The notes under the pieces are model-generated. The model made no database searches, was not told where the DNA came from, and worked only from the letters and a program-made list of their open reading frames with translations. The translations under genes and the position numbers were made by a program. Below, in pieces: positions 1,227-22,985 of a stretch of DNA of 64,000 bases; the stretch's first letter is position 1, and every line of letters starts with the position of its first letter. The DNA comes from Lacibacter cauensis (GTDB taxonomy: Bacteria > Bacteroidota > Bacteroidia > Chitinophagales > Chitinophagaceae), in contig NZ_VLLE01000004.1 in NCBI RefSeq assembly GCF_007830055.1, positions 89,248-153,247 of the forward strand, in the 5' to 3' direction.

Positions 1227-1241
1227 AATAAAAGATAGTGT

Positions 1242-5281: not shown

Positions 5282-5297
5282 TTCTCTTTGTTGTTAT

Positions 5298-6575: not shown

Positions 6576-6576
6576 C

Positions 6577-7011
6577 TTAATCTTTTTCTTCTGATAAATA
6601 TTTTCCTTCTCCATCAAACACAATTTCTTTTCCTGTGATTTGGATTTCATAGGTATTAGAGCCATCCTGTTTGGTTATTTTTTCGCAGCCCTGAATTTTT
6701 TCGTTGGGGTAGTGGGCTTTGATGTAATCGGGAATAGCGGAGGCATTTGGCAACTGGCTTTCGGCAATTACCAATTCTGTTTCTGTTACCTCTGCTTTGT
6801 CGTTAAACGATACTGCTCCTTTTTCTTCTCCATCTTTGTATTTGGCTTCCCAAATTGGCGGTTCATCATTCCATTTCAAAATAGTTGCGTTGGGATGAAG
6901 TTTTACAAATGCTTCTGAAATGTTAGCTGGAACTTGTCGGGTTTTAGCGGCTTGGTTGCAAGCGGATAAAATCAGAACTGTAAATGCGAATAGAATTATT
7001 AGTTTATTCAT
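6577..7011 (-). CDS. PepSY-like (BLIP-like, DUF2874-type) periplasmic lipoprotein
   Basis: Trimmed to the ATG giving MNKLIILFAFTVLILSACNQ (lipoprotein signal). The protein is ~145 aa and is a paralog of the next gene. Shared motifs: 'F.K.YP...I..W..E' and 'YE.EI.G.E..FD..GK....'. Confidence 0.55.
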   Translation of the reverse strand: MNKLIILFAFTVLILSACNQAAKTRQVPANISEAFVKLHPNATILKWNDEPPIWEAKYKDGEEKGAVSFNDKAEVTETELVIAESQLPNASAIPDYIKAHYPNEKIQGCEKITKQDGSNTYEIQITGKEIVFDGEGKYLSEEKD

Positions 7012-7021
7012 GGTTGTGGTT

Positions 7022-7450
7022 TTAATCCTTCGTTTCTTTAATGAATTTTCCGTTGCTATCAAACAATAAATCCAAGCCTTTAATTTCGGCTTCATAAGTA
7101 ACCGTGCCTCTGGCATCAGTAATTTTTGCAGCTTCTTTTACCTTTTGTCCTTTGTAGTTGCTTGCCACATACTCCAAAATTCCTTTTGGCAATTGGTTTA
7201 ATTCAATTTCTACTTCGGCTTCCAGTATGTTGCCTTGTGCATCAAACAAAACTGAATTGTCAATTTTATTGAGGTCAAAACTTGCTTCAAACTTTTCTCC
7301 TTCCTTATCCCACTTTACTTCTTTGATGCTTGGATAGTGTTTTTGAAAGGATGTTTTTACGGATGCAGGAACATCTTTTTCCTGTATTTTTTGTGCAAAG
7401 GTGAGTGATGTAATCACCGCTGCAACTAACATTGAAGCTAACTTTTTCAT
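7022..7450 (-). CDS. PepSY-like (BLIP-like) periplasmic protein, paralog
   Basis: 142 aa with a signal peptide, a tandem paralog of 6577-7011. It is the first gene of the PepSY-PepSY-TolC-MFP-RND transcription unit. Confidence 0.55.
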   Translation of the reverse strand: MKKLASMLVAAVITSLTFAQKIQEKDVPASVKTSFQKHYPSIKEVKWDKEGEKFEASFDLNKIDNSVLFDAQGNILEAEVEIELNQLPKGILEYVASNYKGQKVKEAAKITDARGTVTYEAEIKGLDLLFDSNGKFIKETKD

Positions 7451-7500
7451 TGCCTTGTTTATGAAGTGAATTAAAATTTACAGGGCAAAGTTGCAACCCG

Positions 7501-7529
7501 ATTTAGAAGAAATTTAGAATTTTTAGAAA
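7501..7529. promoter_or_regulatory. Three direct TTAGAA repeats (~10-bp phasing) upstream of the PepSY-efflux operon; candidate response-regulator boxes
   Basis: Sequence gatTTAGAAgaaatTTAGAAtttTTAGAAag. A similar TTGAATtaatTTAGAAT lies at 9481-9497 upstream of the RR-HK operon. Confidence 0.35.
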
Positions 7530-8788
7530 GCCACCGAAAACGAATGAAAATTGTCGGCAAATGAGTAGGTGATTTTCCAGTTGTTCAGGTCTGCAATCTT
7601 CTTGATGATAGCCAAACCCAAGCCGTTTCCTTGTTCGGATGGGTTGGATTTTGCAAAGCGGTTGAATAACTTATCTGCAACCAAAGGTTGTGGTTGTCCT
7701 GTGTTTGAAAAGGTAAGCGAATTGCTTGAAAGGATTACAACTATTTGCCCATCACTTATATTATGCCGAATGGCATTTAGAAACAAATTACTGATAAGGA
7801 TTTCCGTCAAAACAGGATTTGAATTTGTTGAAACGGTTTCATTCAATTCTGTTTTTATTATAAGATTTTTTGCCTTTGCCTGTTCGGTAAAAAAATCAAG
7901 GTGCTTTTCAATTGCTTCATACAAACTGATTGTTTGTTTCTCGTTGTAGTTGTCGTTTTCAATTTTAGAAAGCAGTAATAGATTTTTGTTGAGGCGGTTT
8001 AACCTTGATACACTATCGTTTAATGAACTTAAAATTTGGTTTTGCTGCTCTGTAAATTCTGCACTCTGAATAAGTGTATCAATCTTTGCCTGAAAAACGG
8101 CTAAAGGCGTTTGTAATTCGTGTGCTGCGTTTTCTATAAATTCCCGTTGGCTGTGGTAAATGGAAGTATTGCGTTCAATCAGTTTTTCAATGCTTTGATT
8201 TAGGCGGTTAAATTCCTCAATGTTGGTATTGGTAAGTTTAGGTTGATTGGATTTGTCAATTTCAAATTGCTCAATTTTCTGCAAGGTTTCGTAAAAAGGT
8301 TTCCAAAGATTTTGCGATAATCTTTTATTGATAATTAATAAGCCAACAAGCAACAGCGAAATGATGATTAAGAAAAGAAGTGCAATGCTTTTCATTAAAT
8401 CTTCTGTTTCCACTAAGTTAATTCGTGCTGAATAGGTGTAGGGTTTTCCTTCAATGGAAACAGGTAAATTGAGTTCCCTGTATGGTTCGTTTTCGGAATT
8501 AAGTGTGTCGTAATAATAGCTGTAAAAAATGGTGTCTTTTTGTAGGGGCTTTGCTACAATAATTTTTATATCACGGTTAAATTTGTTCCAAATAGATATG
8601 TCCGCTTCTTTCAATTGTGCAATGGAGAATTGCAAAAATTCATTCTTGCGAAGTATCAATGCTTCGTCTGCATCATCAATGTATAGCTTCTCGGTAAGGA
8701 AATAAAACAAAGGTGCTGCTATAATTAAAATCAGCACTGCAAAAATTAAATATGCTCTTGATGTTTTATGTAATAGTTTTTTAGTCAT
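7523..8788 (-). CDS. Sensor histidine kinase (periplasmic sensing, HisKA + HATPase_c)
   Basis: Two TM segments flank a ~110-aa periplasmic loop. It has an H-box (AAHELQTPLAV), N-box (LISNLFLNAIRHN) and G-boxes (GNGLGLAI). It overlaps the RR gene by 8 nt. Confidence 0.85.
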   Translation of the reverse strand: MTKKLLHKTSRAYLIFAVLILIIAAPLFYFLTEKLYIDDADEALILRKNEFLQFSIAQLKEADISIWNKFNRDIKIIVAKPLQKDTIFYSYYYDTLNSENEPYRELNLPVSIEGKPYTYSARINLVETEDLMKSIALLFLIIISLLLVGLLIINKRLSQNLWKPFYETLQKIEQFEIDKSNQPKLTNTNIEEFNRLNQSIEKLIERNTSIYHSQREFIENAAHELQTPLAVFQAKIDTLIQSAEFTEQQNQILSSLNDSVSRLNRLNKNLLLLSKIENDNYNEKQTISLYEAIEKHLDFFTEQAKAKNLIIKTELNETVSTNSNPVLTEILISNLFLNAIRHNISDGQIVVILSSNSLTFSNTGQPQPLVADKLFNRFAKSNPSEQGNGLGLAIIKKIADLNNWKITYSFADNFHSFSVAF

Positions 8789-9458
8789 TCTGCCACTTGT
8801 AACCTAATCCGTAAACTGTTTTTATATAGTCGCTGCAACCTGCATCTTTCAATTTGTTTTTAAGATTTTTGATATGGGCATACACAAAATCGTGGTTGTC
8901 CAACATATCTGCCATATCGCCTGAAAGATGCTCGGCAATAGCACTTTTTGAAAGCACTTTATTTTCATTGCCGATTAAATATAACAGCAAATCAATTTCT
9001 TTTTTAGTGATGTCAATTTTCTTGCTTTTTACTTTTACTGTTTTAGAACGAATATCAATTTCAATTTCGTTGTAAGCAACAAGATTGTTGCCTTTGAAGT
9101 TTTTTCGCCTGATGAGTGCTTGTATTCTTACAAGCAATTCAGATAAATGAAATGGCTTTGTGAGGTAGTCGTCTGCCCCCAAATTGAACCCTTCAATTCG
9201 TGTGTCCAAAGTTTCTTTTGCAGAAATGATGATTACTCCTTCGATTTTATTTTGCCGTTTTAATTCCTTCAAAATTTCAAAGCCGTTGCCGTCAGGCAAC
9301 ATCAGGTCAAGTAAAATACAATCGTATTCATAGATTGAAATTTTGTCAATTGCATTTTTTAAATTGTTTACCCATTCACATATGAAGCTATTACCTTTAA
9401 GGTAACTTCTGATGCTCTCTGCAAGCTCCTTTTCATCTTCTATGAGTAACAATTTCAT
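8781..9458 (-). CDS. OmpR-family response regulator (receiver + winged-helix)
   Basis: Phospho-acceptor region ILLDLMLPDGNGFEIL and a C-terminal wHTH (TVYGLGYKW). Confidence 0.85.
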   Translation of the reverse strand: MKLLLIEDEKELAESIRSYLKGNSFICEWVNNLKNAIDKISIYEYDCILLDLMLPDGNGFEILKELKRQNKIEGVIIISAKETLDTRIEGFNLGADDYLTKPFHLSELLVRIQALIRRKNFKGNNLVAYNEIEIDIRSKTVKVKSKKIDITKKEIDLLLYLIGNENKVLSKSAIAEHLSGDMADMLDNHDFVYAHIKNLKNKLKDAGCSDYIKTVYGLGYKWQND

Positions 9459-9480
9459 GGTACAAAACTCGGTTCCAATT

Positions 9481-9497
9481 TTGAATTAATTTAGAAT
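9481..9497. promoter_or_regulatory. TTGAAT-N4-TTAGAAT direct repeat upstream of the RR/HK operon (candidate autoregulatory site)
   Basis: Same half-site family as 7501-7529. Confidence 0.3.
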
Positions 9498-9507
9498 GGC
9501 GAATTGA

Positions 9508-11619
9508 TTATAAAAACCAAAGACTTTCTCTTCCAAAGTCAGGCAGTTTGTCGTGTTGGAAATAGGGATAAATCTCTGCAACCATTTCAGGGTATTTGAT
9601 TGTAACTGGCAAACTTTGCTGATTGGTGCTTTTCCAATACATACGGCTGAACTGATAAACCTGGTCAATGAGTTGTTCAACTAAATTCATATCATCTAAC
9701 ATGCCTTCAACAGTTGATGACAAAGCAATCTTCACCGGAAAGTGATATTCCTTCTGTGCTGGTTTTGCCGTTGCATCGTAACGGGTATTATTGAACAACA
9801 AGTATTCTGATTTACCAACTTTTACAATTGTACCACTGTAAGGCATCAGGTTATTGCCGTCTTTTAAGTCAAAGCCTAAAAGTTCTTTGCTTTCTGTTTT
9901 ATTGATGGTTACAACGATTACAGGAATATTTAAGCCTAATGTATGCAGCGTTCTCAGGATGGGTTCTAATTCCTTTTTGCCAATGTCTTTATAGAAATGA
10001 ATAACAAGCCTTGAAGCTGTGTAATTAACTGCAATGAACTTTGCAACTGCTTCACGAATAGAACCTGCAAGACTTACAGTATCGTTGCCTTTAAAACAGT
10101 CAAAGCCTTTAAACATTCCCTCGTTATTAAAGCAAAATGCAGAGCCTACAAACCTTGTTTTTCTTGTTACTGAATAGAATGCTCCAACGCCAACAATCAG
10201 TTCGTTATTGGTTGGTCTGTTTAAACGCCACGGCACACCGCCCAACTTTGCCAGCATTGCGATTTCAATATGTGGCAGGAATGTATTGAAGTAAGAATTT
10301 GGCTTACCGTTTTTGTACAGGTGTTCGCTTTTGATTACCTGTGAAAGCACACCTTCATACAATAGTATTTCTTTGATTTTATAATAGATGTTCTTCCTTG
10401 CTTCGTCTTTCTCTAATTTGGGAACCGGATTAACAAACAAAGCCATGTATTGAGTATCGGGAAGCCATTCTGCATTTTTCACAGCATTTTTCACTGCTGT
10501 AACTGCATTTTGTACTGTATCAAACTCAACGTTCTTTGAAATATCTAACTCAAAAGGAACTTTGATGTAGTCCTGCATCTTGGGGAATGGAAATCTATCA
10601 TCTTTCCAACCACTGTTCAGATACTTATATAACTCGGTAACTGCACCTGCTTTGTCTGACTGCTGATAAATGAAAAAGAATTTGAAATTGCTTGGCTTTT
10701 GTGGCAACTGGTAAGGACCTTTTGACTTAAAATCTTTCTTGGGTTCTTTCCCTGTTCTATTGCCTGAATAAAGCAGGTCATTTGATGTAGAACTAATGAC
10801 CCGATACTGCTCTGCAATTGGCTTATAAAAACCATTTGAACTGATTGGAATTAAGTTGCGGAAAGTATCGTTATCAAAATACTTGGTGTAAAAGTCTTGC
10901 AATACATTGAGGTATCTCGGATAGCGGTTTGTTAAATTTGGTACATCGTGGGCAATCTCTAAATGTGGTTTGATGTCATTACTCAATACAGGAAAGCACT
11001 TATCAGGCATATTGATTACTTCCTGCGGTCTAAACTTCCATTTGTATAAGATGCCATTGCAAACTATCCAATTGTAAAGGTTAGTATTGAAGTTGTAAAT
11101 CTCTGAAACAGGTTTAGCAAAAACTTTTGTCGTGCCGTCATAAGACAAAACTATTTCGGGTTTATCTGTAACCCTTGCATGTTGCACCTTTACAGTAAAC
11201 TGGTTGTACACATTGTATTTTGCATTGCTTTTATCCTTGTCGTGAAACCATACTTCTGTTTCGCTGGTGAAATTCTGATGGATAATGTCAGCAATGCCCA
11301 TGAAATAATCCCGAATGAGAAAACGGTAATAATGATTTGCGAACCTGTAAGAAACAGATAAGTCAATCTCCAGTTCTATTGCACCCTCTTTGGCTGGTTG
11401 AAAATCTGTGTACAGTTTGTTTAACTCTAACAGTTCTAATGCAGAAAGTTTATCATCAAGAAGCCCTTGCAAATCATCTTTGAACACCGGGTAATAATCA
11501 GCCTGTTTCTGCTTATAAAAAGCAAATTTCTGTTTCCCTTTAGGTGGGTCAAATGGAATGATGTTTAAGAGTAATTCTTGCTGCATAAAGTTTAAATATT
11601 TTCTAAACGGGTTATCCAA
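9508..11619 (-). CDS. Long prokaryotic Argonaute (pAgo), predicted catalytically inactive (long-B type)
   Basis: 703 aa. The MID-domain 5'-phosphate pocket pattern is conserved: YYKIK ... GVLSQVIK ... NTFLPHIEIAMLAKLGGVPWRL, matching the hAgo2 VYAEVK...GMATQCVQ...LKINVKLGGVN pattern (Y/K/Q/K). In the PIWI domain, the first catalytic Asp is replaced (IVGVGAFYS versus iGADVTH) and the last His/Asp is replaced (VYQFSRMYW), so the DEDX tetrad is incomplete. An alternative start at ATG 11586 would remove the 28-nt overlap with the upstream gene. Confidence 0.65.
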   Translation of the reverse strand: MDNPFRKYLNFMQQELLLNIIPFDPPKGKQKFAFYKQKQADYYPVFKDDLQGLLDDKLSALELLELNKLYTDFQPAKEGAIELEIDLSVSYRFANHYYRFLIRDYFMGIADIIHQNFTSETEVWFHDKDKSNAKYNVYNQFTVKVQHARVTDKPEIVLSYDGTTKVFAKPVSEIYNFNTNLYNWIVCNGILYKWKFRPQEVINMPDKCFPVLSNDIKPHLEIAHDVPNLTNRYPRYLNVLQDFYTKYFDNDTFRNLIPISSNGFYKPIAEQYRVISSTSNDLLYSGNRTGKEPKKDFKSKGPYQLPQKPSNFKFFFIYQQSDKAGAVTELYKYLNSGWKDDRFPFPKMQDYIKVPFELDISKNVEFDTVQNAVTAVKNAVKNAEWLPDTQYMALFVNPVPKLEKDEARKNIYYKIKEILLYEGVLSQVIKSEHLYKNGKPNSYFNTFLPHIEIAMLAKLGGVPWRLNRPTNNELIVGVGAFYSVTRKTRFVGSAFCFNNEGMFKGFDCFKGNDTVSLAGSIREAVAKFIAVNYTASRLVIHFYKDIGKKELEPILRTLHTLGLNIPVIVVTINKTESKELLGFDLKDGNNLMPYSGTIVKVGKSEYLLFNNTRYDATAKPAQKEYHFPVKIALSSTVEGMLDDMNLVEQLIDQVYQFSRMYWKSTNQQSLPVTIKYPEMVAEIYPYFQHDKLPDFGRESLWFL

Positions 11620-12254
11620 TTATTGAATCTTGGAGATTTTGCCCTTATGCGTTCCAAACCAATTGCCTCAGAAAGAATATCACCATAAACAACCTTATTG
11701 TAACCGTTAATAATTCTTTCTAAACGATGAGACGGAGAAGTAGCTTTATTGTTGTTTATCATTTCAGGATTTGCATAATCAGCAAAGGTTTTTTCAAGCT
11801 CTGCCATACCTACTAAATCTTCTTTTGGTATTTGACTTTTGATGACGTCAATATCATTGAAAAGCAATCCTTCAAATTCATGCAATTGCAAATAAGGAAT
11901 AAATCTATTTTGAAATTGTGGGTCAATGCTCTGTAACATTGATTGCTCTAGGCTATCCATACGGCTGTATTTGTCTACAATTGTATGTGCTGCATCCCAT
12001 CCCGGAAACTGGTATTTTGCATACATGCCATAATAGTCAATAAAGGTGGTCACATAAGCATCCGGTTCTGCTTTGAGGTGTGTATCGATTTGATCTTTTA
12101 ATTTACTCCATTTAACAATACCACCTCTTGATGCCTTAATTAAGGGTGTTTGCAAATAAATATTTCTGTTGATGAAAGGAACCTGTAAGTTAGTTTTAGC
12201 AAATGCTTGCTCTGTAGGTCCTTCGCAAATCATAATTATCCTTTTCATAACCAT
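11592..12254 (-). CDS. DUF4276-like protein (TOPRIM-like putative nuclease partner of the upstream ATPase)
   Basis: 220 aa. The N-terminal MICEGPTE(Q) resembles the conserved start of the DUF4276 family as I recall it. A downstream acidic 'LFNDIDVIK' gives an E...DxD-like arrangement reminiscent of TOPRIM. It is translationally coupled to the ATPase (3-nt gap) and to pAgo. Confidence 0.5.
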   Translation of the reverse strand: MVMKRIIMICEGPTEQAFAKTNLQVPFINRNIYLQTPLIKASRGGIVKWSKLKDQIDTHLKAEPDAYVTTFIDYYGMYAKYQFPGWDAAHTIVDKYSRMDSLEQSMLQSIDPQFQNRFIPYLQLHEFEGLLFNDIDVIKSQIPKEDLVGMAELEKTFADYANPEMINNNKATSPSHRLERIINGYNKVVYGDILSEAIGLERIRAKSPRFNNWITRLENI

Positions 12255-12257
12255 TTA

Positions 12258-13328
12258 CTAAAAGTTTGGTTGACCTGTTGTAATAATGTTTCTTTTCCAT
12301 AAATCATCTATGGTGTAATCTTCTAACCAGACCTTTAATTTCTCTGAATCTAACCTTTCAAAAATGCTTTCTCCGTTCTTTTGGTCAACTGTAATCACAT
12401 TTTCTGGTTCAAAATGACTTATTAAGTCAGTGGACTGAGTTGCAATAATTACTTGGCACTTTTTTGCTGCTACAGATTTTACCAACCCTGCAAGTTTGGA
12501 AATTGCCGTTGGGTGCAAGCCCAATTCAGGTTCATCAATAATGATAGTTTCCGGTAGATTGGGCTGAAGAAATAAGGTTGCTAAAGCAATAAAACGAATT
12601 GTACCATCTGACAAATCGTTTACACCATATACAGTAGAACTATACTTGCTTTGCCATCTTAGTTTCAGGTTTCCGTTACTCTCTGGACGAAAGAAAAAAT
12701 CTAAAAAGTATGGAGCTATGCTCTGGATTGTTTTTACAATGAGATTGTAGACAATAGGTTTTTCTTTTTGAATGTTATACAAATAAGCACCCAGATTGCT
12801 ACCCTTTTCATACAAATAGTATTTATCGTTCTCAATGTTTGATTCCTTATTGAATGGCGAATTTTCACCAGTATCATGAAAGTGATATTTCGCTAATTGC
12901 TTTAGATAATTTCTTATGTAGTCTGCTCTTGGGATTGTTTGATAACGCAAAACAGATTCGGGACCAAATGATGCAGCATCTACGGGGTTTTTATAATAGG
13001 GATTATTACCATACCATAAACCCTCTTTTGTGAAAATAAAACCTGCATCACCTTTCTTTATTGTAAAAGAGTAGCCGTTGGTATTGGGAAAATACAAGTG
13101 TGTTGAAATTTCCTCTGTCACTTTATCTCCCTTGTGTAAAAAAGTATCTATACCTTTTAGAGCAACAAACTCTTGTAGATTGCGATTATACACCTGCTTT
13201 AAAAAATCAAAGAAGGATAAAAAATTACTTTTACCACTTCCGTTTGCACCAATAAGAATATTGATGGGTTGGAGCTTTAGGCTTAACTCTTTAATAGATT
13301 TATAGCCGTTTATGTCAATTTTATTCAT
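12258..13328 (-). CDS. ABC/AAA_21-type ATPase (OLD/RecF-like abortive-infection ATPase family)
   Basis: 356 aa with Walker A IGANGSGKSN, an ABC-signature-like LSDGTIRF and Walker B IIIDEPELGLHP. It overlaps the HsdS stop by 4 nt. Confidence 0.75.
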   Translation of the reverse strand: MNKIDINGYKSIKELSLKLQPINILIGANGSGKSNFLSFFDFLKQVYNRNLQEFVALKGIDTFLHKGDKVTEEISTHLYFPNTNGYSFTIKKGDAGFIFTKEGLWYGNNPYYKNPVDAASFGPESVLRYQTIPRADYIRNYLKQLAKYHFHDTGENSPFNKESNIENDKYYLYEKGSNLGAYLYNIQKEKPIVYNLIVKTIQSIAPYFLDFFFRPESNGNLKLRWQSKYSSTVYGVNDLSDGTIRFIALATLFLQPNLPETIIIDEPELGLHPTAISKLAGLVKSVAAKKCQVIIATQSTDLISHFEPENVITVDQKNGESIFERLDSEKLKVWLEDYTIDDLWKRNIITTGQPNF

Positions 13329-14788
13329 TTGACTTTGTTTTGTTCGTTCTTAATGTGCTTAAATGCTTCCTTCTCGTCTTGTTCAATAAATATTTCAACT
13401 GCCTTTTTCGCCACGTCAATTAATGACTTCGACTGCTGCTCTGCTAACTGAACCGACTTAACCTTTTTTGTTATTGCTTTTACATTCTTAGATACAGGAA
13501 TAATTAAACCTGCTACATCTGTATTCTTGATGTGACCAACTGTGTCAGCAATAGTCATTTGCCTTAACAACTGCATTTGACCTATTTTACTATTGATGAC
13601 AAGAAGAATATACTCAGAGGTGAATTGCGATTTGGGTTTGATTTGAATATGACATACACGCTGATTAACATATACTGGCTCCACAACTAAACTGCTATAA
13701 AACCATTTAAGACCATCCATGCCAATCACAATATCACCAGTATTTGCCTTTGTCAATTTTAGTTTTCTTACATAATCATTATCCAACTTAGTGAGGTCGG
13801 CTGTTTGGATAAAATGAGGTTTACAATCTCTAATCCTTATGAAAGGTTCACCTTCACCCACCTCGATAAACTGTTTACTTTGAAAAGGGAAACCATTTTT
13901 TATTACTATTTCTGAACGCAGTTTTGTTGTTTCAAACTTTGATAACCGTTCAAGTAATTCAAGGCAAGCTGCATCCCAAAATTCAGCATCTAATCTGTCG
14001 CCTTTAAGCATTGTACTTAGTTTTATAATTGAGTGATTGTCCTCAATTTCAAACTGTACTTTGTAGTTCTTGAATTTAATTTTCTTTGGCTTCCAAGTGT
14101 CTAAATTCAATTCCTTGAAAAGCATGTCTTCTGCTGCCTTATACTCTTTTAAGGCTTTTTGCTGAAGGCTATAAGATGTTTCAACAAGCTGCTGTATCTC
14201 ATTCTGAAACTTCTTACTTACTACAGGTATCGGGATGGTGTACAAATATGACGGTGCAATTTCAGGCTGCAAGCCACCATACATTCCTTTATCTATTAAT
14301 TTCCGACCATAGAATGAATTAAGGAAAACGCCCAAATAAAACGGGTTGACCTTTTTTGTTCTAACGATAAGAATATGAGAAGATGCAATTAATGGTTCCC
14401 TTTGCCCAAAGTAAATTGCAGTATCCCCGAAATTTGCTCCTGTTCTTGTAATTACAACATCACCATGATTTACTAAGTTGCTCTTTAGCTTTTTAGCATC
14501 ATCTGAACTGATAAAAACCTCTGAACTCTCGAATGTAATGTTCAATGGTCTTAAATTCTGGGTTCTAAAAAAAGTTACACCCTCGTCTGAATATTCTCGT
14601 TTAATCTCTGAAGGATGCAAGATTACGGTATCAAGATTTCCAAGAGTTTTATACTTTTTACTTGTAACAGCATCATAAACCCTCAAATATTCTGGATGAT
14701 AAAACTCCGCATCAATACGTAATCTGCCTTCTAATGCAGAAAAGTTTATTGCTGAGTATTCAAAGTTTTTATACTTTCTAATGTCCAT
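13325..14788 (-). CDS. Restriction-modification specificity subunit (HsdS-like, two target-recognition domains)
   Basis: 487 aa with a duplicated TRD/coiled-coil organisation. The start is 1 nt downstream of the methyltransferase stop. Confidence 0.8.
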   Translation of the reverse strand: MDIRKYKNFEYSAINFSALEGRLRIDAEFYHPEYLRVYDAVTSKKYKTLGNLDTVILHPSEIKREYSDEGVTFFRTQNLRPLNITFESSEVFISSDDAKKLKSNLVNHGDVVITRTGANFGDTAIYFGQREPLIASSHILIVRTKKVNPFYLGVFLNSFYGRKLIDKGMYGGLQPEIAPSYLYTIPIPVVSKKFQNEIQQLVETSYSLQQKALKEYKAAEDMLFKELNLDTWKPKKIKFKNYKVQFEIEDNHSIIKLSTMLKGDRLDAEFWDAACLELLERLSKFETTKLRSEIVIKNGFPFQSKQFIEVGEGEPFIRIRDCKPHFIQTADLTKLDNDYVRKLKLTKANTGDIVIGMDGLKWFYSSLVVEPVYVNQRVCHIQIKPKSQFTSEYILLVINSKIGQMQLLRQMTIADTVGHIKNTDVAGLIIPVSKNVKAITKKVKSVQLAEQQSKSLIDVAKKAVEIFIEQDEKEAFKHIKNEQNKVK

Positions 14789-14789
14789 C

Positions 14790-17009
14790 TTAGTTGTTTA
14801 AGAAATCAAATGCTACATCACCTGCCTTAGCTCTTTTTTTACCCCAATCCTCATACGCATCGGCAATCATTGAAAGGTCAGTTTGGTAAACAGGATTTTT
14901 ATTTTCATCCAGCACTACATTACCTTCCTTATCCTGTAAAAAGATATACTCCCCTGAGTTGTTCTTAAAACTAATTTTGCTTGTAGCGAAGAATATTGGA
15001 TAATCTTTAATCTCTTCGCCTTCTTCATATTTCTTTAGAAACAACAAGCTCGTTTTTGTGCCTGTATGTGGTTTGAAGCTATTGCCATGCAAACCAACGA
15101 CTGCCAAAATCCTCGCCTTGCTGGTTACAAACTTCCGAACATACTTTTCACTGCTATTATTGAATATGCCCTGTGGCAGAACAATAACAGCTCTTCCCCC
15201 TGGGTTCAACAAATCAAGAACCCTCTCAATAAAAAGTATATGCCTATCAACTTTCTCCCACTTGCTTTCGTTCTTTTTGAAGTTGATAATTTCTTTTATC
15301 CTTGGGGTCAATTGTGGCTCAAATAATTCGCCTTCCAATACAGCATCTATCATTACCTGAGATATTAACTGACAAGCAAACTGCTGGTCATCTTCACTTT
15401 CCAAATCAATTTCCTCATCTTTATTTATCTCTTTCACTTTTGCAATTATGCTTTCAATACCTTCATCAGTAAAGGTTATTTCAAACTCCTCTGCAATGGT
15501 ATTTATCATTGCTTTAATCTTGCCAGTATCAATTTTAAAAGTGTAACGATGCCCTAAGATTTCATTGTAAAGATTGATTAATGATTTTTCCTGTATATCG
15601 CCTGCGAATGGCGGGTTGCTCATTACTATATCAAAATGCAAGTGCTTGTTTTTATCATCACTTATCAAATCTTCTTTTTGAAGTTCAACAGTAATTTCAG
15701 GTGTCCACTTGGGATGCTCCAAAGAGTTTTGTTTAAAGATGTGTGTTTTACCATCACCTGCAATCAGCATTATTGCTCTTGAAATTTTTGCTGACTTTTC
15801 ATCAAAGTCAATACCCCATAAATATTTTGAAGCATAATTAACCTTTGCTTTCTCGGTGGTCATTTTGTATTTATTCCACACATACTCCATTGTATGCACA
15901 AGAAAACCTGCTGAACCACAAGCCGGGTCAATTACATATTCCTTATTGCTTGGGTTTATCATTCGTACACAAAAATCAATTACAGGTCTTGGTGTGAAGT
16001 ATTGCCCTTTCTTGCTTTTAGCAACATCAGGTATTAAATATTCAAACGCTTCATCAATGATGCGGAGGTTGGAGAAAAACAGTTTAACTTCTGTGAGTTC
16101 ACCAACACAAACGTTCAAATGTTCCGGTGTTAATTCAATGCTATCAGAAGCTGCAAAAATTCCTTTCCATTCTTTCTTTGCATCATCAAACAGTTTGCCT
16201 ATTTCCCTTTTGGTTACTTCTGCTGTTTTGTATTGGCGGAAAAGCAAGGATTTATCCTTCCTGTTTTCTGCCTCCCATTCATCATACAACTTTGCGTAGA
16301 TGAGTTTGAAAATCTCTGTAAAGCTGTCTGCACCGGAATTAGCAAGTACAAGTTCTTCCAGCACTTCAATAATCTTGCGAAGATTGAACTGCTTATTTTC
16401 ATTGATCTTCTCTAATTCAGATAAGGTCCACTTACGGCCAAGAATAATGTCTTTGATTGAGGCTGCCGGATGTTCTTCATCTTTTACCTGCTGATATTCC
16501 GCTTCAGTAGGAATGTCTGGTAAGCTATCATCAAACTCTTTTGGGTATGGTCTAAAAAGCCTTGTAATGGCATTACCGTTTACACCAACACCAAGCGGAG
16601 AACCTTCATTGTTCAAATAGCTTTTAAGCTGCTGTATGCTATTCTTTTGGGATGGAGCTTTTACCTCCACCAAAATCCACGGTGTTGTTTCGTCTTCCTG
16701 GTAAACAACTATATCAGCCCGTCCTCGTCCGTTCCTTCCGAAACTTACATTCTGCTCACACTTCAACCTGTTTTTGGGATAGTGATAATGTTCTGTCAAT
16801 TCAGTAAGGAATAATTGCCTTACAATTTCTTCGGGTGCAGATTTGCCTGTGGCTACATTGTAAACCAATTTGTCTTTTCCTTCGCTGTCGTGACTTTTTA
16901 AATACCACTTGCCTTTTTCCTTCTCAAAGAATTTGAGTTTCGGAACGTATTGCTTTTGCAGTGACAGATCCGTTTCCCAGTTGGGCAGTATTTTTGAAAG
17001 TATATCCAT
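14790..17009 (-). CDS. Fused PD-(D/E)xK nuclease (HsdR_N-like) + N6-adenine DNA methyltransferase; type IIB (BcgI A-subunit-like) or type I-like RM enzyme
   Basis: 739 aa. The N-terminal RADIVVYQEDETTPWILVEVKAP is a D...EVK nuclease motif. MTase motif I is IDPACGSAGFLV and motif IV is NPPF. There is a ~110-aa insertion between NPPF and the LLNPGGRAVIVLPQGIF motif. No HsdR helicase gene is present in the operon. Confidence 0.7.
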   Translation of the reverse strand: MDILSKILPNWETDLSLQKQYVPKLKFFEKEKGKWYLKSHDSEGKDKLVYNVATGKSAPEEIVRQLFLTELTEHYHYPKNRLKCEQNVSFGRNGRGRADIVVYQEDETTPWILVEVKAPSQKNSIQQLKSYLNNEGSPLGVGVNGNAITRLFRPYPKEFDDSLPDIPTEAEYQQVKDEEHPAASIKDIILGRKWTLSELEKINENKQFNLRKIIEVLEELVLANSGADSFTEIFKLIYAKLYDEWEAENRKDKSLLFRQYKTAEVTKREIGKLFDDAKKEWKGIFAASDSIELTPEHLNVCVGELTEVKLFFSNLRIIDEAFEYLIPDVAKSKKGQYFTPRPVIDFCVRMINPSNKEYVIDPACGSAGFLVHTMEYVWNKYKMTTEKAKVNYASKYLWGIDFDEKSAKISRAIMLIAGDGKTHIFKQNSLEHPKWTPEITVELQKEDLISDDKNKHLHFDIVMSNPPFAGDIQEKSLINLYNEILGHRYTFKIDTGKIKAMINTIAEEFEITFTDEGIESIIAKVKEINKDEEIDLESEDDQQFACQLISQVMIDAVLEGELFEPQLTPRIKEIINFKKNESKWEKVDRHILFIERVLDLLNPGGRAVIVLPQGIFNNSSEKYVRKFVTSKARILAVVGLHGNSFKPHTGTKTSLLFLKKYEEGEEIKDYPIFFATSKISFKNNSGEYIFLQDKEGNVVLDENKNPVYQTDLSMIADAYEDWGKKRAKAGDVAFDFLNN

Positions 17010-17013
17010 TGGT

Positions 17014-17325
17014 TTACTTGTTTTTCTTTTTTGTTTTACGATACTTTATTTCGTCCTCAGCAACCTGCATTGCTTTAAGTGCCAAATCCTCATCTTTCGT
17101 TACATCAATAATCTGGTCCGCTAACCAAAGTGTAAGCAATTCATCGTTGCTGACTTTCATTATTCGGGCTAACTGAATTACCTGCTCTTTCTTGGCTTTG
17201 CGTTCCCCTCTCTCAATTTTACTAAGCATAGGAGTATCAATTTCCAAAATAGAAGCAACCTGCCTTTGCAACAAATTATTCTGCTCTCTGAGTTGCTTTA
17301 ATCGTTCACCAAATTGGTTTGCCAT
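17014..17325 (-). CDS. XRE-family HTH transcriptional regulator (candidate C-protein-like controller of the RM/defence operon)
   Basis: 103 aa with LKQLREQNNLLQRQVASILEIDTPMLSKIERGER (XRE HTH). Its stop is 4 nt from the RM gene start. An ATTGCCA direct repeat sits at the start codon. Confidence 0.75.
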   Translation of the reverse strand: MANQFGERLKQLREQNNLLQRQVASILEIDTPMLSKIERGERKAKKEQVIQLARIMKVSNDELLTLWLADQIIDVTKDEDLALKAMQVAEDEIKYRKTKKKNK

Positions 17326-17527: not shown

Positions 17528-19792
17528 TTAGGATTTGCGGTACAGACCCGCCTTTAACTTGGTGAGGGAAACTCCGGTAGCCGTTTTTAGGATTTCATCA
17601 ACTGAACGGGCTGAAAGTTTGAATTGTGAGCCTAACTCTGTTGCCTGTTTCCGGGTGAACTCTTCCGGCAGGGCTTCAAAGAATTTGCGTTTGCTGTCGC
17701 CTGATTGGAAACTCATCACTTCGTTCTGCTTTGGCAGGTTGTTAAACATGAGTAGACTGTGTTGCAAGTAAGTTTGTGCAATGGCAAGGGCTGTATTAAA
17801 ATCTTCATCGGTGCAAAAAACTGTGTCGGTAACTTCACCGTTCTCAAACTTACGGAGTGCTGAAAATATCATGCAAAGCCTGAACATGATTAAGCCTAAA
17901 CGGTACACAATGCCTGAAGCCTCCTCACTGGTAAAAATGGTTACTTCTGAAAGGATGCCTGAAAAGGTTGTGTTTAAAACCTGCCATTGTTCGGGCTGCA
18001 ATTGTACCACTGTTGGCGACTGTTCCAAAAAGCCAATCATGTCTAACACTGATTGAGAAAGTGCCTCAAAATGGTCATTGAAAACAATGGTGTGGCTCTG
18101 TGGTGAAGGGTCTTGCCAAACAATTTCATTTTTGAAAGCATAGAACAGGAAGCGGCTGAATAAGCCATCTTCTGCTGATGCAATCAGCTTTGGAGCTTGT
18201 GCCGGAGTGCCTGACAAGGCAACGGCTAAACGTGGCTCGTTGATTTCAATGTATTCGTTATTGGTTTTACGGGTAAGGGTAATTTTCTCATGGTGGAAGG
18301 CAGCCCGCAGGGCTGGCGAATAGTCGCCCCAATCTTGCTTTTTTGCTCCACTCATGGTATCAGCTTCAGTTTCGCAAATGATACCTTGCCCATCGTTGTT
18401 TTGCAGGTGTTCAATCATCCTGGAATGTGAACTGTCGGCAGGAATGAAAACGATTTTGAAAGGTGGTTCATTCGGTTTTTCGGGTGCAGGTTCTCCTTTC
18501 TTTCTGTTGCGTTGGAGTTCCTTGTAATCTACCATTTCAGCATCATGCCTTTTCTGGGCTTCTCTGCTTGCACCTAATACCTGTTGATGGTATTTGTCAG
18601 CCAATCGTTTTGCGTTCTTTAAAACGCCCTTTCCGCTTGCAGCAGGGGCAATGATAAAAGTGTATAGATGCGGATGCACTCTTTCCTGAAAATAGATGCC
18701 TGTTACTTTTGGAAGGCAACCGCTAATGATTGCAATTGCACCAGTGAAGAACACATCTCTTTTCCGCTTGTCGGAAAAGGCAATTGAGCCTTCTTTAAGG
18801 ATATGGGGCAAAGCCTCATAGACTTCATCAGGAATGGTTGGAGTGGTCTTTAAATAGTCCTCTAAAGGGTCTTCATCTTCCGCCTGTGTATTGGGCTTTG
18901 CAGGTTGCAACTTTGCAGACTTTGCAAACTTTGCAAATTCACCTGCATGGTGGGTGTAGGCACTTTTTACCGCTTCAAGAATTTCTCTTTCAGGTAGGTC
19001 AAAATGCTGCGAACATAAAAGTTCAGTATCGGGCTGCGATATACCAGCTCTGTTGCAATTAGAAGCAAGCAGATAAATAAAATTGTTTCTGTTTCCATCT
19101 GTGTATGATGCTTTTTGATTTGTGAATTGAATTTGTTGATTGAAAAGGAATGCAGCGTTCAGATTTGTATCAGGTAAATCCCGCATCACTTGTGCTGCGG
19201 GTTGCTGCTTTTGCTTAACCTCTTGCTTGGTGATAATTTCATGTACTTGTACTTTGAATTTCTCATTGTAAATATTCTTGTACAGTCCAGGGTGATAACT
19301 CACAAAGCAAAGCCGGGTAATGTCCTTGCAGCTTGGGTCTGCCTTCAAACCTGTTGCTTCTTCGTAATACTTCTGCACTTGTAAATAAGCGATGTCGTGC
19401 TGTTCAATGTCTGTATCTATTTCAACAAACACTTTTAAACCGTTACCGCTTGGGCTGATAAAGCATAAGAAGGTGTAAGGGATTTCGGAAATGACTTTAA
19501 AGGCTGTATTTAGTTGTTCAGGTGTCAGCTTATCAAAATCTAAATGCACAAAACCGCTGTACATTTCAATAAACTGCATTTGCCTTTTCTCTGTGAATAC
19601 TGCGGATGGAGTGAATGCCAACAGTTGCTTTTTTTTGTTGGCAGCTTCTTCCGTTTTGCCTTGCTCCAGTAAAGCCCTGATTTCTTCTACCTCTGCTTTG
19701 TATTTGCCGGAAGCAATATCATTACCGATAAGCAGCAATGATTTTTTTTCAACCGGCACGGTGAAGTTTTTAAATATCGTACATGATGCCAT
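17528..19792 (-). CDS. VirE_N / DUF3987 primase-helicase-like protein (Bacteroidetes mobile-element replication/mobilisation protein)
   Basis: 754 aa. The N-terminal BT4734/VirE-like region is followed by a P-loop (IIAPAASGKGVL) in a DUF3987/D5-like C-terminal region. This is the typical partner of an integrase plus small HTH in Bacteroidota islands. Confidence 0.6.
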   Translation of the reverse strand: MASCTIFKNFTVPVEKKSLLLIGNDIASGKYKAEVEEIRALLEQGKTEEAANKKKQLLAFTPSAVFTEKRQMQFIEMYSGFVHLDFDKLTPEQLNTAFKVISEIPYTFLCFISPSGNGLKVFVEIDTDIEQHDIAYLQVQKYYEEATGLKADPSCKDITRLCFVSYHPGLYKNIYNEKFKVQVHEIITKQEVKQKQQPAAQVMRDLPDTNLNAAFLFNQQIQFTNQKASYTDGNRNNFIYLLASNCNRAGISQPDTELLCSQHFDLPEREILEAVKSAYTHHAGEFAKFAKSAKLQPAKPNTQAEDEDPLEDYLKTTPTIPDEVYEALPHILKEGSIAFSDKRKRDVFFTGAIAIISGCLPKVTGIYFQERVHPHLYTFIIAPAASGKGVLKNAKRLADKYHQQVLGASREAQKRHDAEMVDYKELQRNRKKGEPAPEKPNEPPFKIVFIPADSSHSRMIEHLQNNDGQGIICETEADTMSGAKKQDWGDYSPALRAAFHHEKITLTRKTNNEYIEINEPRLAVALSGTPAQAPKLIASAEDGLFSRFLFYAFKNEIVWQDPSPQSHTIVFNDHFEALSQSVLDMIGFLEQSPTVVQLQPEQWQVLNTTFSGILSEVTIFTSEEASGIVYRLGLIMFRLCMIFSALRKFENGEVTDTVFCTDEDFNTALAIAQTYLQHSLLMFNNLPKQNEVMSFQSGDSKRKFFEALPEEFTRKQATELGSQFKLSARSVDEILKTATGVSLTKLKAGLYRKS
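18896..18940. repeat. Four to five tandem CTTTGCA(A/G) repeats, the reverse complement of the 17449-17492 iterons, inside the primase-like coding sequence
   Basis: Sequence CTTTGCAGGTTGCAACTTTGCAGACTTTGCAAACTTTGCAAATTC. It encodes the ..EFAKFAKSAKLQ.. segment. Confidence 0.55.
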
Positions 19793-19822
19793 TGTTCTGT
19801 TCTTTCAGTTAGTTAAAAAATT

Positions 19823-20128
19823 CTACTTGCTGCGTTTGTTGCGGATTACATAGTCAGTAGCCAACTGGTCAATTTCATCGGCTGCTGATTGGCGGTTACG
19901 TTGTAACCAGTTATCCAACTCCTCCCGTTTGAAGTAGAGTTTTTTACCCTGCGGACAGAAATGGGGAATGTGCTTTGTACTTGTGAGCTTGTACAAATGC
20001 GAAGGACTTACATCTAAATATTTGCAAGCCTCGTTAAAGTTCAGGACTGTTTTTTGCAACAGGTTTTGCTCATCCAGCTTGTTAGCGATTTCGGTGAGCT
20101 TGTCTAAGATTAATTCTTCGTGTGCCAT
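19823..20128 (-). CDS. Small helix-turn-helix DNA-binding protein (excisionase/regulatory, Bacteroidetes mobile-element type)
   Basis: ATG start (MAHEELILDK..) gives ~101 aa. The ORF-track start at 20182 is probably an over-extension. A basic C-terminal helix is present. It lies upstream of the primase-like gene, as in CTn/NBU-like modules. Confidence 0.5.
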   Translation of the reverse strand: MAHEELILDKLTEIANKLDEQNLLQKTVLNFNEACKYLDVSPSHLYKLTSTKHIPHFCPQGKKLYFKREELDNWLQRNRQSAADEIDQLATDYVIRNKRSK

Positions 20129-20233
20129 CTTTTTTAAATTTTTAAATTGATGGCACAAACCTCCTAATTGCTTGAGGGGCAAAGGTTAAGGGGTTAACCC
20201 CTTACTCAGATTACTGAATAATCTTAATGTTTT

Positions 20234-21301: not shown

Positions 21302-21303
21302 TA

Positions 21304-22410: not shown

Positions 22411-22418
22411 TCTTTCAG

Positions 22419-22766
22419 TTATTTAAAAAGATTATTAATTTCTGTTCTTGGAATGATAGTACGACTGCCCAACTTGGAAGCCTTTAAACTCCCTGCATCA
22501 ATCAACCTGTAAATGGTCCATCTGCTGGCTCCGATTAACTGGCAAGTTTCCTTTACACTCAGGAACTCCTTTTGGGTAACAATGGGGTTGAATGGTTTCT
22601 GCTCATTCTCTTTCTGAATAACAGCTTCAACCTTTGCATTTCTTGCCCTCTGTTTGTAGGCTGCACTTGCACAGCGATGGGAACAACATTTAGTTGTTGT
22701 CTTCTGTGTAATGAATTTTTTGCCGCAGTGCTGACAGGTTTTTTCTACTTTAATCGTACTACTCAT
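22419..22766 (-). CDS. Zinc-ribbon + HTH excisionase-family DNA-binding protein
   Basis: 115 aa with CQHCGKK..CCSHRC (zinc ribbon) and a C-terminal MerR/Xis-like HTH (CQLIGASRWTIYRLIDAG). Confidence 0.6.
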   Translation of the reverse strand: MSSTIKVEKTCQHCGKKFITQKTTTKCCSHRCASAAYKQRARNAKVEAVIQKENEQKPFNPIVTQKEFLSVKETCQLIGASRWTIYRLIDAGSLKASKLGSRTIIPRTEINNLFK

Positions 22767-22767
22767 T

Positions 22768-22921: not shown

Positions 22922-22985
22922 AAAAGAAGGAAAAATCAGCTAAAACCTATGAAAAACAAGCACTTAGCAAACAAAGGAAAGATAA

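What the first reader, a model, noticed from the sequence alone, without database searches (positions are those of the whole stretch)
9508..17325. Six-gene overlapping operon: XRE regulator, BcgI-like RM, HsdS, ABC ATPase, DUF4276 and inactive long pAgo. Candidate composite or new Argonaute-associated defence system.
All six ORFs are on the minus strand with 0-5-nt gaps or overlaps: XRE→RM 4 nt, RM→S 1 nt, S→ATPase 4-nt overlap, ATPase→DUF4276 3 nt, and DUF4276→pAgo a 28-nt overlap or 5-nt gap. They therefore form one transcription unit. A catalytically dead long pAgo needs a partner effector. Known partners are nucleases, SIR2, TIR or membrane proteins encoded immediately next to it. Here the immediate partner is an OLD/PARIS-like ATPase plus a TOPRIM-like DUF4276 protein, an association I do not recognise as a described pAgo system. 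The upstream fused RM enzyme adds a third layer.
Basis: partly seen in the sequence, partly recalled or inferred. Interest (0 to 1): 0.9.

Follow-up and report, generated by a model that had tools for sequence, protein, structure and literature searches.

The report
Stacked defence genes beside backbone Argonaute
The six tightly packed genes are real, but they are three separate, already-known defence modules sitting together in the swap-in cargo slot of a known mobile element, not a new Argonaute-plus-ATPase immune system.

Summary
**Observation confirmed.** Six co-directional minus-strand genes at 9508-17325 have gaps of 5 nt or less: XRE, a BcgI/BsaXI-like restriction-modification (RM) subunit, an S subunit, an ABC ATPase, a DUF4276 TOPRIM protein, and a catalytically dead long Argonaute (pAgo). 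The true pAgo start is ATG 11586, giving 692 aa.

**The proposed pAgo–ATPase/DUF4276 partnership fails its own refutation test.**
- Across 51 pAgo-homologue loci, only one independent locus (L028) has the pair adjacent to the pAgo.
- One more (L029) has a distant pair embedded in a type III RM.
- Elsewhere the upstream neighbour is type I, IIG or III RM, a helicase, Schlafen, Fic, metal efflux, or nothing.
- DNA homology between loci begins at the pAgo ATG and ends at its stop codon.
- The ATPase/DUF4276 pair (PADLOC candidate HEC-01) occurs alone at 83-89% identity.
- The RM+S pair occurs alone at 72% identity.

**What the locus is.** It belongs to a published element type (NAR 2025, PMC11724360): integrase, PrimPol/DUF3987 helicase, variable cargo, then a long-B pAgo. 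Here the element sits next to mnmE in Lacibacter cauensis.

**Verdict.** This is a new member of a known kind, and interest is low. Two questions stay open: what this effector-less backbone pAgo does, and whether HEC-01 defends at all.

The parts
17014..17325 (-). XRE-family HTH regulator (103 aa). It is the first gene of the cargo slot. Homologues at 50-69% identity precede different RM types in other elements.
   Evidence: Pfam HTH_3/19/31 and PADLOC control-protein hits. Cluster c4 sits next to the primase in L001, L002, L010, L014, L018, L022, L025 and L028.
14790..17009 (-). Type IIB (BcgI/BsaXI-like) bifunctional RM subunit. It has an N-terminal PD-(D/E)xK nuclease (D99...E115-V-K117) and a gamma-class N6-adenine methyltransferase (DPACGSAG 361-368, NPPF 465-468).
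   Evidence: Pfam HSDR_N_2 and N6_Mtase. The best solved relative is RM.BsaXI, E 3.7e-31. The protein is 100% identical to a Lacibacter cauensis protein.
13325..14788 (-). Specificity (S) subunit with two target-recognition halves (487 aa).
   Evidence: PADLOC Specificity_I hit over residues 8-471. NCBIfam MAD5-like full-length alignment, below cut-off. Orthologues follow the methyltransferase in L059-L061.
12258..13328 (-). HEC-01A ABC-type ATPase (356 aa). Motifs: Walker A GANGSGKS 27-34, signature LSDGT 239-243, Walker B IIIDE 262-266.
   Evidence: Pfam AAA_21/AAA_15. PADLOC HEC-01A at 443 bits, full length.
11592..12254 (-). HEC-01B DUF4276 TOPRIM-like putative nuclease. It is 220 aa, or probably 218 aa from ATG 12248. 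The conserved Glu lies in ICEGPTE 9-15.
   Evidence: Pfam DUF4276 at 188 bits. PADLOC HEC-01B at 253 bits. DUF4276 is assigned to the TOPRIM superfamily in PMC12065111.
9508..11586 (-). Long-B-type, catalytically inactive Argonaute (692 aa). It is a backbone gene of the element.
   Evidence: PADLOC pAgo at 888 bits. AF2 model with pLDDT 83. Best structural match is RsAgo, TM 0.64-0.65. Y401/K405/Q416/K447 and G468 are invariant. Homology between loci is bounded by the start and stop codons.
17528..19792 (-). Fused primase-polymerase (BT4734-like/VirE_N) and DUF3987 helicase. This is the element's replication module, equivalent to AgaPP+AgaPH.
   Evidence: Pfam. PMC11724360. Conserved upstream of the pAgo in at least 21 loci.
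19823..22766 (-). Element backbone: HTH_17 (19823-20182), DUF6617 (20234-21301), tyrosine integrase (21304-22410) and HTH_17 (22419-22766).
   Evidence: Pfam. The same gene order occurs in L018, L019, L035, L047, L050 and L062.
22986..24365 (-). Chromosomal mnmE (trmE). It marks the integrase-proximal edge of the element.
   Evidence: Pfam. mnmE also flanks the integrase in L047 and L062.
801..9458 (-). Probable second cargo region downstream of the pAgo: OmpR-type response regulator, histidine kinase, two PepSY-like proteins, OEP, HlyD, AcrB RND pump and EamA.
   Evidence: Pfam. RND or metal-efflux genes also follow the pAgo in L015, L017, L021, L022, L045, L049, L050 and L052.

Best explanation
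The block is a mosaic of three independent, previously described modules. They are packed head-to-tail in the variable cargo slot of a Bacteroidota integrative element, which in Lacibacter cauensis is inserted beside mnmE. The element backbone is: integrase, DUF6617, HTH_17, PrimPol-DUF3987 helicase, variable cargo, then a long-B pAgo.

**Module 1: XRE-headed type IIB RM enzyme (RM subunit plus S subunit).**
- Inferred by analogy with BcgI/BsaXI.
- The S subunit directs the RM subunit to a bipartite site.
- Host sites are N6-adenine methylated.
- Unmodified incoming DNA is cut by the N-terminal PD-ExK domain.

**Module 2: HEC-01, an ABC ATPase plus a DUF4276 TOPRIM nuclease.**
- Inferred by analogy with OLD, Gabija and PARIS.
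- The ATPase senses a phage-derived cue, possibly an anti-restriction factor.
- It then licenses the TOPRIM nuclease.
- This is unproven: the tested HEC-01 gave no protection in E. coli.

**Module 3: the pAgo, an element backbone gene rather than cargo.**
- It keeps an invariant 5'-phosphate guide-binding pocket but has no slicer residues.
- It most likely binds small guides and complementary invader or competitor DNA, as RsAgo does, and interferes without cutting.
- This would serve the element, not any upstream cargo gene.

**What is shown and what is inferred.** Gene identities, modular independence and the pAgo's backbone status are shown. The biochemical steps are inferred from the families.
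For: **Linkage.**
- tblastn and phmmer over 51 pAgo loci find DUF4276/AAA_21 only in L028 (adjacent) and L029 (35-37% identity, embedded between type III mod and res, 3.6 kb away).
- The immediate upstream neighbour belongs to at least 14 different families in 37 loci. The median gap is 22 nt, so tight packing is generic.
- Neighbour families were identified.

**Minimal and non-defence contexts.**
- L047: primase followed directly by pAgo.
- L035: HTH-Fic followed by pAgo.
- L045: metal efflux followed by pAgo.

**Homology boundaries.**
- Homology to the window starts at the pAgo ATG and ends at its stop codon in more than 40 loci.
- L001 and L002 have pAgos 96-98% identical to the window's, with different cargo.
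- L028 has HEC-01 at 89-90% identity but its pAgo at only 74%. Nucleotide identity steps from 81% to 72% at the ATG.

**Each module occurs alone.**
- HEC-01 alone: L056-L058, 83-89% identity.
- RM+S alone or with other partners: L061, L059, L060, L002.

**pAgo properties.**
- Best structural match is RsAgo, TM 0.64-0.65.
- G468 is invariant; D534 and E667 are not conserved.
- The YKQK pocket residues are invariant.

**Literature.**
- The same element architecture is published, with 'other genes acquired and lost frequently' (PMC11724360).
- The VirE_N-associated long-B subclade is described separately from effector-linked groups (PMC10620215).
- HEC-01 is described as a module embedded within other defence systems.
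Against: - The six genes are translationally close-packed. The S/ATPase junction is a 4-nt overlap and the DUF4276/pAgo gap is 5 nt. They are probably co-transcribed, which allows functional cross-talk.
- The identical six-gene block recurs in at least four metagenome contigs (L052-L055). These are near-identical copies of one element lineage, so they are not independent evidence.
- ABC ATPase-TOPRIM modules recur after methylation systems (L007, L028, L029; MADS, Hma). Full independence of HEC-01 from the RM is therefore not proven.
- No experiment bears on any of the three modules in this organism.
Confidence: 0.85

Rival explanations
1. One reading: the dead long pAgo is the sensor and the adjacent ABC ATPase plus DUF4276 TOPRIM nuclease are its dedicated effectors. 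Together they would form a new Argonaute-associated defence system, with the RM as an added layer.
For: - The DUF4276/pAgo gap is 5 nt and the genes are co-directional.
- The same junction occurs in L028 and in L052-L055.
- The pAgo lacks a catalytic tetrad and has no nuclease, SIR2 or TM gene downstream.
Against: - No conserved linkage: 1 adjacent case among 37 informative upstream contexts.
- The pAgo and HEC-01 have discordant similarity, 74% against 89-90% in L028.
- pAgos 96-98% identical to the window's carry other cargo (L001, L002).
- The pAgo occurs with no defence cargo at all (L047, L035, L045).
- HEC-01 occurs alone at 83-89% identity.
- Tight spacing before the pAgo is seen with every kind of neighbour.
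Confidence: 0.04
2. XRE, methyltransferase, S, ATPase and DUF4276 together form one integrated methylation-associated system, a 'mini-MADS' equivalent to Mad1/2/5/3/4. The ATPase-TOPRIM pair would be a restriction or guard arm wired to the RM. The pAgo would be unrelated.
For: - The best NCBIfam hits are MAD2, MAD5 and MAD3, and PADLOC gives mad2/3/5 hits.
- DUF4276 is Mad4.
- The S/ATPase junction is a 4-nt overlap.
- L028 has M+S+HEC-01 with no recognisable R subunit. L029 has HEC-01 between type III mod and res. L007 has the same RM type followed by a fused OLD-like ATPase-TOPRIM.
- HEC-01 was discovered embedded in Hma systems.
Against: - All MADS scores are far below the curated cut-offs: 259 against 720, 146 against 400, and 100 against 420.
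- Mad6-8, which are mandatory in the MADS model, have no counterpart in the block.
- The RM subunit has its own intact PD-ExK nuclease motif, and its closest solved relative is the self-sufficient type IIB enzyme BsaXI.
- RM+S occurs without HEC-01 (L061, L059, L060, L002), and HEC-01 occurs without any RM (L056-L058).
Confidence: 0.1
3. Plug-and-play model: the backbone pAgo has no fixed effector. It uses whichever nuclease-bearing module occupies the upstream slot (RM, HEC-01, GmrSD and others) as its executioner.
For: - The pAgo is nearly always packed within tens of nucleotides of an upstream, usually nuclease-encoding, defence gene.
- The function of this pAgo clade is unknown.
Against: - Some elements have no nuclease cargo upstream: L047 has none, L035 has HTH-Fic, and L045 has metal efflux.
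- The neighbours are structurally unrelated families, which makes a shared protein interface unlikely.
Confidence: 0.03

Closest known systems
AgaPP-associated long-B pAgo integrative elements (Han lab, NAR 2025, PMC11724360; og_54 VirE_N subclade of Song et al. 2023 and Ryazansky et al. 2018)
   Same: - The layout is integrase, VirE_N/BT4734-like PrimPol, DUF3987 helicase, a few variable HTH/defence genes, then a catalytically inactive long pAgo.
- The cargo is variable while the backbone is conserved.
   Different: - Here the PrimPol and the DUF3987 helicase are fused in one 754-aa protein.
- The element abuts mnmE, not a tRNA.
- The cargo is type IIB RM plus HEC-01.
- A second cargo region of efflux genes follows the pAgo.
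- Placement in the same phylogenetic subclade is inferred from architecture, not from a tree.
RsAgo (Rhodobacter sphaeroides long-B Argonaute)
   Same: - It is the best structural match over the full length (TM 0.64-0.65).
- It is catalytically inactive.
- The YKQK-type 5'-phosphate pocket is conserved.
   Different: - Sequence identity is only about 15%.
- The guide and target types of the Lacibacter protein are unknown.
- RsAgo is not described as an element backbone gene.
HEC-01 (PADLOC Hma-embedded candidate 01: ABC ATPase + TOPRIM)
   Same: Both proteins match the HEC-01A and HEC-01B models over their full length (443 and 253 bits). The module sits nested among other defence genes.
   Different: - Here it lies between a type IIB RM and a pAgo, not inside an Hma system.
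- Defence activity of HEC-01 has never been demonstrated.
Type IIB restriction enzymes BcgI / BsaXI
   Same: The RM subunit has an N-terminal PD-ExK nuclease and a gamma-class N6-adenine methyltransferase, with a separate two-TRD S subunit. The best PDB relative is RM.BsaXI.
   Different: - It is preceded by an XRE regulator.
- The recognition site and cleavage pattern are unknown.
MADS (mad1-8) and PARIS (AriA/AriB)
   Same: - MADS: homologues of Mad2, Mad5, Mad3 and Mad4.
- PARIS: ABC ATPase plus TOPRIM logic.
   Different: - MADS: the mandatory Mad6-8 are absent and scores fall below family cut-offs.
- PARIS: the nuclease is DUF4276, not the DUF4435 of AriB.

Membership tests
Long-B prokaryotic Argonaute (AgaPP/VirE_N-associated subclade) | PIWI domain and full-length N-L1-PAZ-L2-MID-PIWI Argonaute fold | tested here: met
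   Pfam Piwi at 55 bits. PADLOC pAgo model matched end to end at 888 bits. The AF2 model matches RsAgo and other long Agos over the full length, TM 0.64-0.65.
Long-B prokaryotic Argonaute (AgaPP/VirE_N-associated subclade) | Loss of the DEDX catalytic tetrad | tested here: met
   The first Asp position is an invariant Gly (G468 in VGVGAF). D534 and E667 are not conserved across 28 homologues.
Long-B prokaryotic Argonaute (AgaPP/VirE_N-associated subclade) | Genomic association with an integrase, a VirE_N PrimPol and a PriCT/DUF3987 helicase upstream, separated by a few variable genes | tested here: met
   Window genes at 17528-22766. The same arrangement occurs in at least 21 homologous loci.
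Long-B prokaryotic Argonaute (AgaPP/VirE_N-associated subclade) | Phylogenetic placement inside the long-B clade of Ryazansky et al. | not tested
   No reference long-B sequence set was available. The closest solved relatives by sequence are AfPiwi, RsAgo and EcAgo, which is consistent with long-B but is not a tree.
BPAN / BPAS / BPAM long-B systems | Dedicated nuclease, SIR2 or transmembrane effector encoded immediately downstream of the pAgo in a 2-3-gene operon | tested here: not met
   Downstream of the pAgo are a response regulator, a histidine kinase, PepSY-like proteins and RND efflux genes. Downstream genes vary between loci.
HEC-01 (PADLOC candidate) | Adjacent ABC ATPase (HEC-01A) and DUF4276/TOPRIM protein (HEC-01B) | tested here: met
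   HEC-01A at 443 bits over residues 1-354. HEC-01B at 253 bits over residues 2-219. Walker A, Walker B and signature motifs are intact.
HEC-01 (PADLOC candidate) | Anti-phage activity | not testable with these tools
   The published HEC-01 representative gave no protection in E. coli.
PARIS (AriA/AriB) | AriB TOPRIM nuclease of the DUF4435 family paired with AriA | tested here: not met
   The nuclease partner is DUF4276 with no DUF4435 hit. The AriA model hit is weak, 97 bits against 443 for HEC-01A.
MADS (methylation-associated defence system) | Mad6, Mad7 and Mad8 present (mandatory in the published model) | tested here: not met
   The block contains only XRE, methyltransferase, S, ATPase and DUF4276. 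Flanking genes are the primase and the pAgo.
MADS (methylation-associated defence system) | Mad2/Mad3/Mad5 equivalog scores above the NCBIfam cut-offs | tested here: not met
   Scores of 259 against 720, 100 against 420, and 146 against 400 bits.
Type IIB restriction-modification (BcgI/BsaXI-like) | One polypeptide with a PD-(D/E)xK nuclease and an N6-adenine methyltransferase, plus a separate S subunit with two TRDs | tested here: met
   HSDR_N_2 at residues 59-167 plus N6_Mtase. D99...E115-x-K117, DPACGSAG and NPPF motifs. Best PDB relative is RM.BsaXI, E 3.7e-31. S subunit of 487 aa.
Type IIB restriction-modification (BcgI/BsaXI-like) | Cleavage on both sides of a bipartite site | not testable with these tools
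   This needs biochemistry.

The most novel reading that the evidence does not exclude
This backbone long-B pAgo has no dedicated effector. It could act as a plug-and-play sensor that exploits whichever nuclease module is co-transcribed in the cargo slot just upstream. In this lineage that module would be the HEC-01 ABC ATPase-TOPRIM pair, which would explain why the pAgo is always packed against the last cargo gene.
Probability: 0.05. Interest if true: 0.8.

Novelty: new member of a known kind. Interest (0 to 1): 0.25.

Why it matters
As proposed, a new effector class for dead Argonautes would have been important, but the comparative evidence removes that reading.

What remains is a clean, well-delimited example of a mobile element whose slot between the PrimPol-helicase and the pAgo swaps RM and other defence cassettes.

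It also leaves two open questions that this locus could help answer:
- What does the effector-less, element-backbone long-B pAgo do?
- Does the HEC-01 ATPase-TOPRIM pair, so far inactive in assays, act as a guard for RM systems?

Tried and rejected
- **att repeats.** I looked for att-type direct repeats between the mnmE-proximal end (22700-23100) and the region after the pAgo or the rest of the left arm. Only one chance 13-mer turned up, so the distal element end is undetermined and may lie outside the window.
- **tRNA at the element end.** I looked for one as in the published Seonamhaeicola element. The only tRNA is tRNA-Ser at 54735, which is unrelated.
- **Published supplements.** I checked whether Sediminibacterium or Algoriphagus pAgos are listed in them, to confirm subclade identity. 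No usable text was held.
- **L060 218-aa protein.** I considered it a hidden DUF4276 after the RM. phmmer gave no match.
- **PARIS and MADS.** I considered both as family assignments and rejected both on defining features.
- **Promoter scan.** The sigma-70 scan gave no more sites than shuffled sequence (31 against 26.3 ± 4.8). It is not suited to Bacteroidota promoters, so it says nothing about internal promoters.


Full report
**Observation**

The six minus-strand ORFs exist exactly where reported. The junctions are XRE/RM 4 nt, RM/S 1 nt, S/ATPase a 4-nt ATGA overlap, ATPase/DUF4276 3 nt, and DUF4276/pAgo 5 nt.

Profile searches confirm every domain call:
- HTH_3/19/31 for the XRE protein.
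- HSDR_N_2 plus N6_Mtase for the 739-aa protein.
- A type I-like S subunit.
- AAA_21/AAA_15 and DUF4276.
- Piwi, with a PADLOC pAgo model matched end to end at 888 bits.

The 28-nt-overlap versus 5-nt-gap question is settled in favour of ATG 11586. Nucleotide homology to more than 40 related loci starts at w11586-11588, and most homologues are 692 aa. No convincing minus-strand terminator interrupts the block. One transcript is therefore plausible but untested.

**The pAgo**

- The closest solved sequences are the inactive AfPiwi and RsAgo.
- An AlphaFold model built on 28 homologues (pLDDT 83, pTM 0.78) matches RsAgo best over its full length, with TM 0.64-0.65.
- In the family alignment the first catalytic Asp position is an invariant Gly (G468, VGVGAF). 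D534 and E667 are not conserved.
- The MID 5'-phosphate pocket residues Y401, K405, Q416 and K447 are invariant.

**The linkage test**

I fetched 44 genomic loci from different species, with pAgo identity of 62-98%. I then added seven more contexts from more distant relatives at 51-58% identity.

tblastn and phmmer find a DUF4276 or related ATPase in only two of the 51 loci:
- L028, where the pair is adjacent to the pAgo.
- L029, a 35-37% identical pair about 3.6 kb upstream, sitting between type III mod and res.

In 37 loci with informative upstream sequence, the gene directly before the pAgo belongs to at least 14 families. Families identified include:
- Type I HsdR, and the RM accessories RhuM, YhcG and YgjP.
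- Type IIG and type III RM components.
- A 1209-aa SF1 helicase.
- Schlafen AlbA_2, Fic, GmrSD and Bro-N.

The median gap to the pAgo is 22 nt and is often 0-7 nt. Tight packing is therefore a property of the slot, not of DUF4276.

Three loci show that no nuclease cargo is needed at all:
- L047 has the primase followed directly by the pAgo.
- L035 has only HTH-Fic before it.
- L045 has a metal-efflux operon there.

**Modularity**

- Homology between the window and almost every locus begins at the pAgo start codon and ends at its stop codon.
- pAgos 96-98% identical to the window's (L001, L002) have different cargo.
- L028 shares HEC-01 at 89-90% protein identity, but its pAgo is only 74% identical. 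Nucleotide identity steps from about 81% to about 72% at the pAgo ATG.

*Reverse test on the ATPase/DUF4276 pair.* At 97% identity the pair recurs only in near-identical copies of the same six-gene element (L052-L055). At 89, 87 and 83% identity it is a stand-alone pair in unrelated contexts, with no RM or pAgo nearby (L056-L058).

*Reverse test on the RM subunit.* Relatives occur in the following contexts:
- With S alone among housekeeping genes (L061, 72% identity).
- With a DUF87 ATPase (L059, 91% identity).
- With other small inserts (L060, 76% identity).
- In another mnmE-linked element (L062, 60% identity).
- Directly before a 98% identical pAgo with no ATPase (L002).

**What the locus is**

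Upstream of the block lie a fused BT4734-like/VirE_N PrimPol and DUF3987 helicase, HTH_17, DUF6617, a tyrosine integrase and HTH_17. Chromosomal mnmE follows. mnmE also flanks the integrase in L047 and L062.

This architecture is published. PMC11724360 describes integrase, AgaPP PrimPol, PriCT-DUF3987 helicase and long-B pAgo as conserved components, with 2-8 intervening genes 'acquired and lost frequently'. It leaves the pAgo's function open. Song et al. 2023 place VirE_N-associated long-B pAgos in a subclade separate from the effector-linked BPAN/BPAS/BPAM systems.

The ATPase/DUF4276 pair is PADLOC's HEC-01, scoring 443 and 253 bits. It was discovered as a module embedded in other defence systems and was inactive in the E. 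coli assays tried. DUF4276 is a TOPRIM-superfamily domain and equals Mad4.

The RM subunit's closest solved relative is the type IIB enzyme BsaXI. Its PD-ExK and NPPF motifs are intact.

The window comes from Lacibacter cauensis, based on a 100% protein match.

**Mechanism (inferred)**

Three layers act independently:
1. **XRE-headed type IIB RM.** It methylates host sites and cuts unmodified DNA.
2. **HEC-01.** The ABC ATPase senses a cue and licenses the TOPRIM nuclease. This follows the OLD/Gabija/PARIS logic. A role as a guard against anti-restriction is attractive, given its habit of nesting in methylation systems (L007, L028, L029, MADS, Hma). That role is untested.
3. **The backbone pAgo.** It binds 5'-phosphorylated guides and complementary DNA without slicing, probably for the benefit of the element.

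**Rivals**

- *pAgo-HEC-01 partnership.* It fails on conservation, discordant similarity and stand-alone occurrence.
- *Integrated mini-MADS* (XRE, methyltransferase, S, ATPase and DUF4276 as Mad1/2/5/3/4). This keeps some weight because MAD2, MAD3 and MAD5 are the best NCBIfam hits and the S/ATPase genes overlap. However, the scores are far below cut-off, Mad6-8 are absent, the RM has its own nuclease, and both halves occur alone.
- *Plug-and-play pAgo.* This is nearly excluded by elements that have no nuclease cargo.

**Verdict**

The locus is a new instance of a known element type carrying known modules. Interest is low. What remains of interest is the unknown function of this pAgo clade and of HEC-01.

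Noticed in passing
window 22767-24365; L047 2081-5183; L062 336-3429: The element's integrase end abuts the 3' end of mnmE (trmE) in the window and in two distant relatives. This suggests a conserved integration site downstream of mnmE. No att repeat could be found inside the window.
   Followed up: partly
L036 8075-11507; L040 3153-5423: In these loci mnmE lies directly upstream of the pAgo. In L036 a 177-aa ORF between them is a C-terminal fragment of a type III Res endonuclease. In L040 the pAgo is 5'-truncated. Both look like deletion remnants of decayed elements.
   Followed up: partly
window 801-9458; L045 12134-13323; L049 13169-20230; L050 12165-21090; L052 9590-15486: A second cargo region lies downstream of the pAgo. 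It carries two-component regulators, RND or metal-efflux pumps, P-type ATPases or mercury genes. The pAgo therefore sits between a defence slot and a resistance slot, not at the element's end.
   Followed up: partly
L045 1612-9921: In a Sediminibacterium element the slot between the primase and the pAgo holds a metal-efflux operon (RND pump, adaptor, P-type ATPase) in place of defence genes.
   Followed up: no
L007 2557-9974: The same RM type (XRE, HSDR_N_2-methyltransferase, S) is followed by a fused OLD-like AAA_21-TOPRIM protein (540 aa) and a GmrSD enzyme before the pAgo. This parallels the split ATPase/TOPRIM pair in the window.
   Followed up: partly
L028 5207-9995; L029 4627-9053: L028 has methyltransferase + S + HEC-01 with no recognisable restriction subunit. 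L029 has a diverged HEC-01 pair between type III mod and res, with its ATPase split into two fragments. This hints that HEC-01 may be tied functionally to methylation systems.
   Followed up: no
L003 9073-9729; L020; L021; L029 (cluster c18): A protein of 214-302 aa with no Pfam match recurs immediately upstream of the pAgo in four loci, with a 17-nt gap in L021 and L029. Its function is unknown, and it was not examined as a possible pAgo-linked gene.
   Followed up: no
L060 10238-10834; L062 10233-10838: A roughly 200-aa protein of unknown function, 54% identical between the two loci, is inserted between the type IIB RM subunit and its S gene.
   Followed up: no
window 17528-19792: The PrimPol (BT4734-like_N, residues 53-171) and the DUF3987 helicase (residues 343-684) are fused in one 754-aa protein. 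The published Seonamhaeicola element encodes them as two interacting proteins.
   Followed up: no
window 12248-12254: Most DUF4276 homologues are 218 aa. The likely start is therefore the second ATG (12248), which makes the ATPase/DUF4276 gap 9 nt instead of 3 nt.
   Followed up: partly
window 9459-9536: Only 49 nt separate the pAgo stop from the response-regulator start, and there is no terminator. A sigma-70-like match (TTGGAA-18-TATAAT) overlaps the pAgo stop codon. Read-through from the defence block into the two-component and efflux genes is possible.
   Followed up: no
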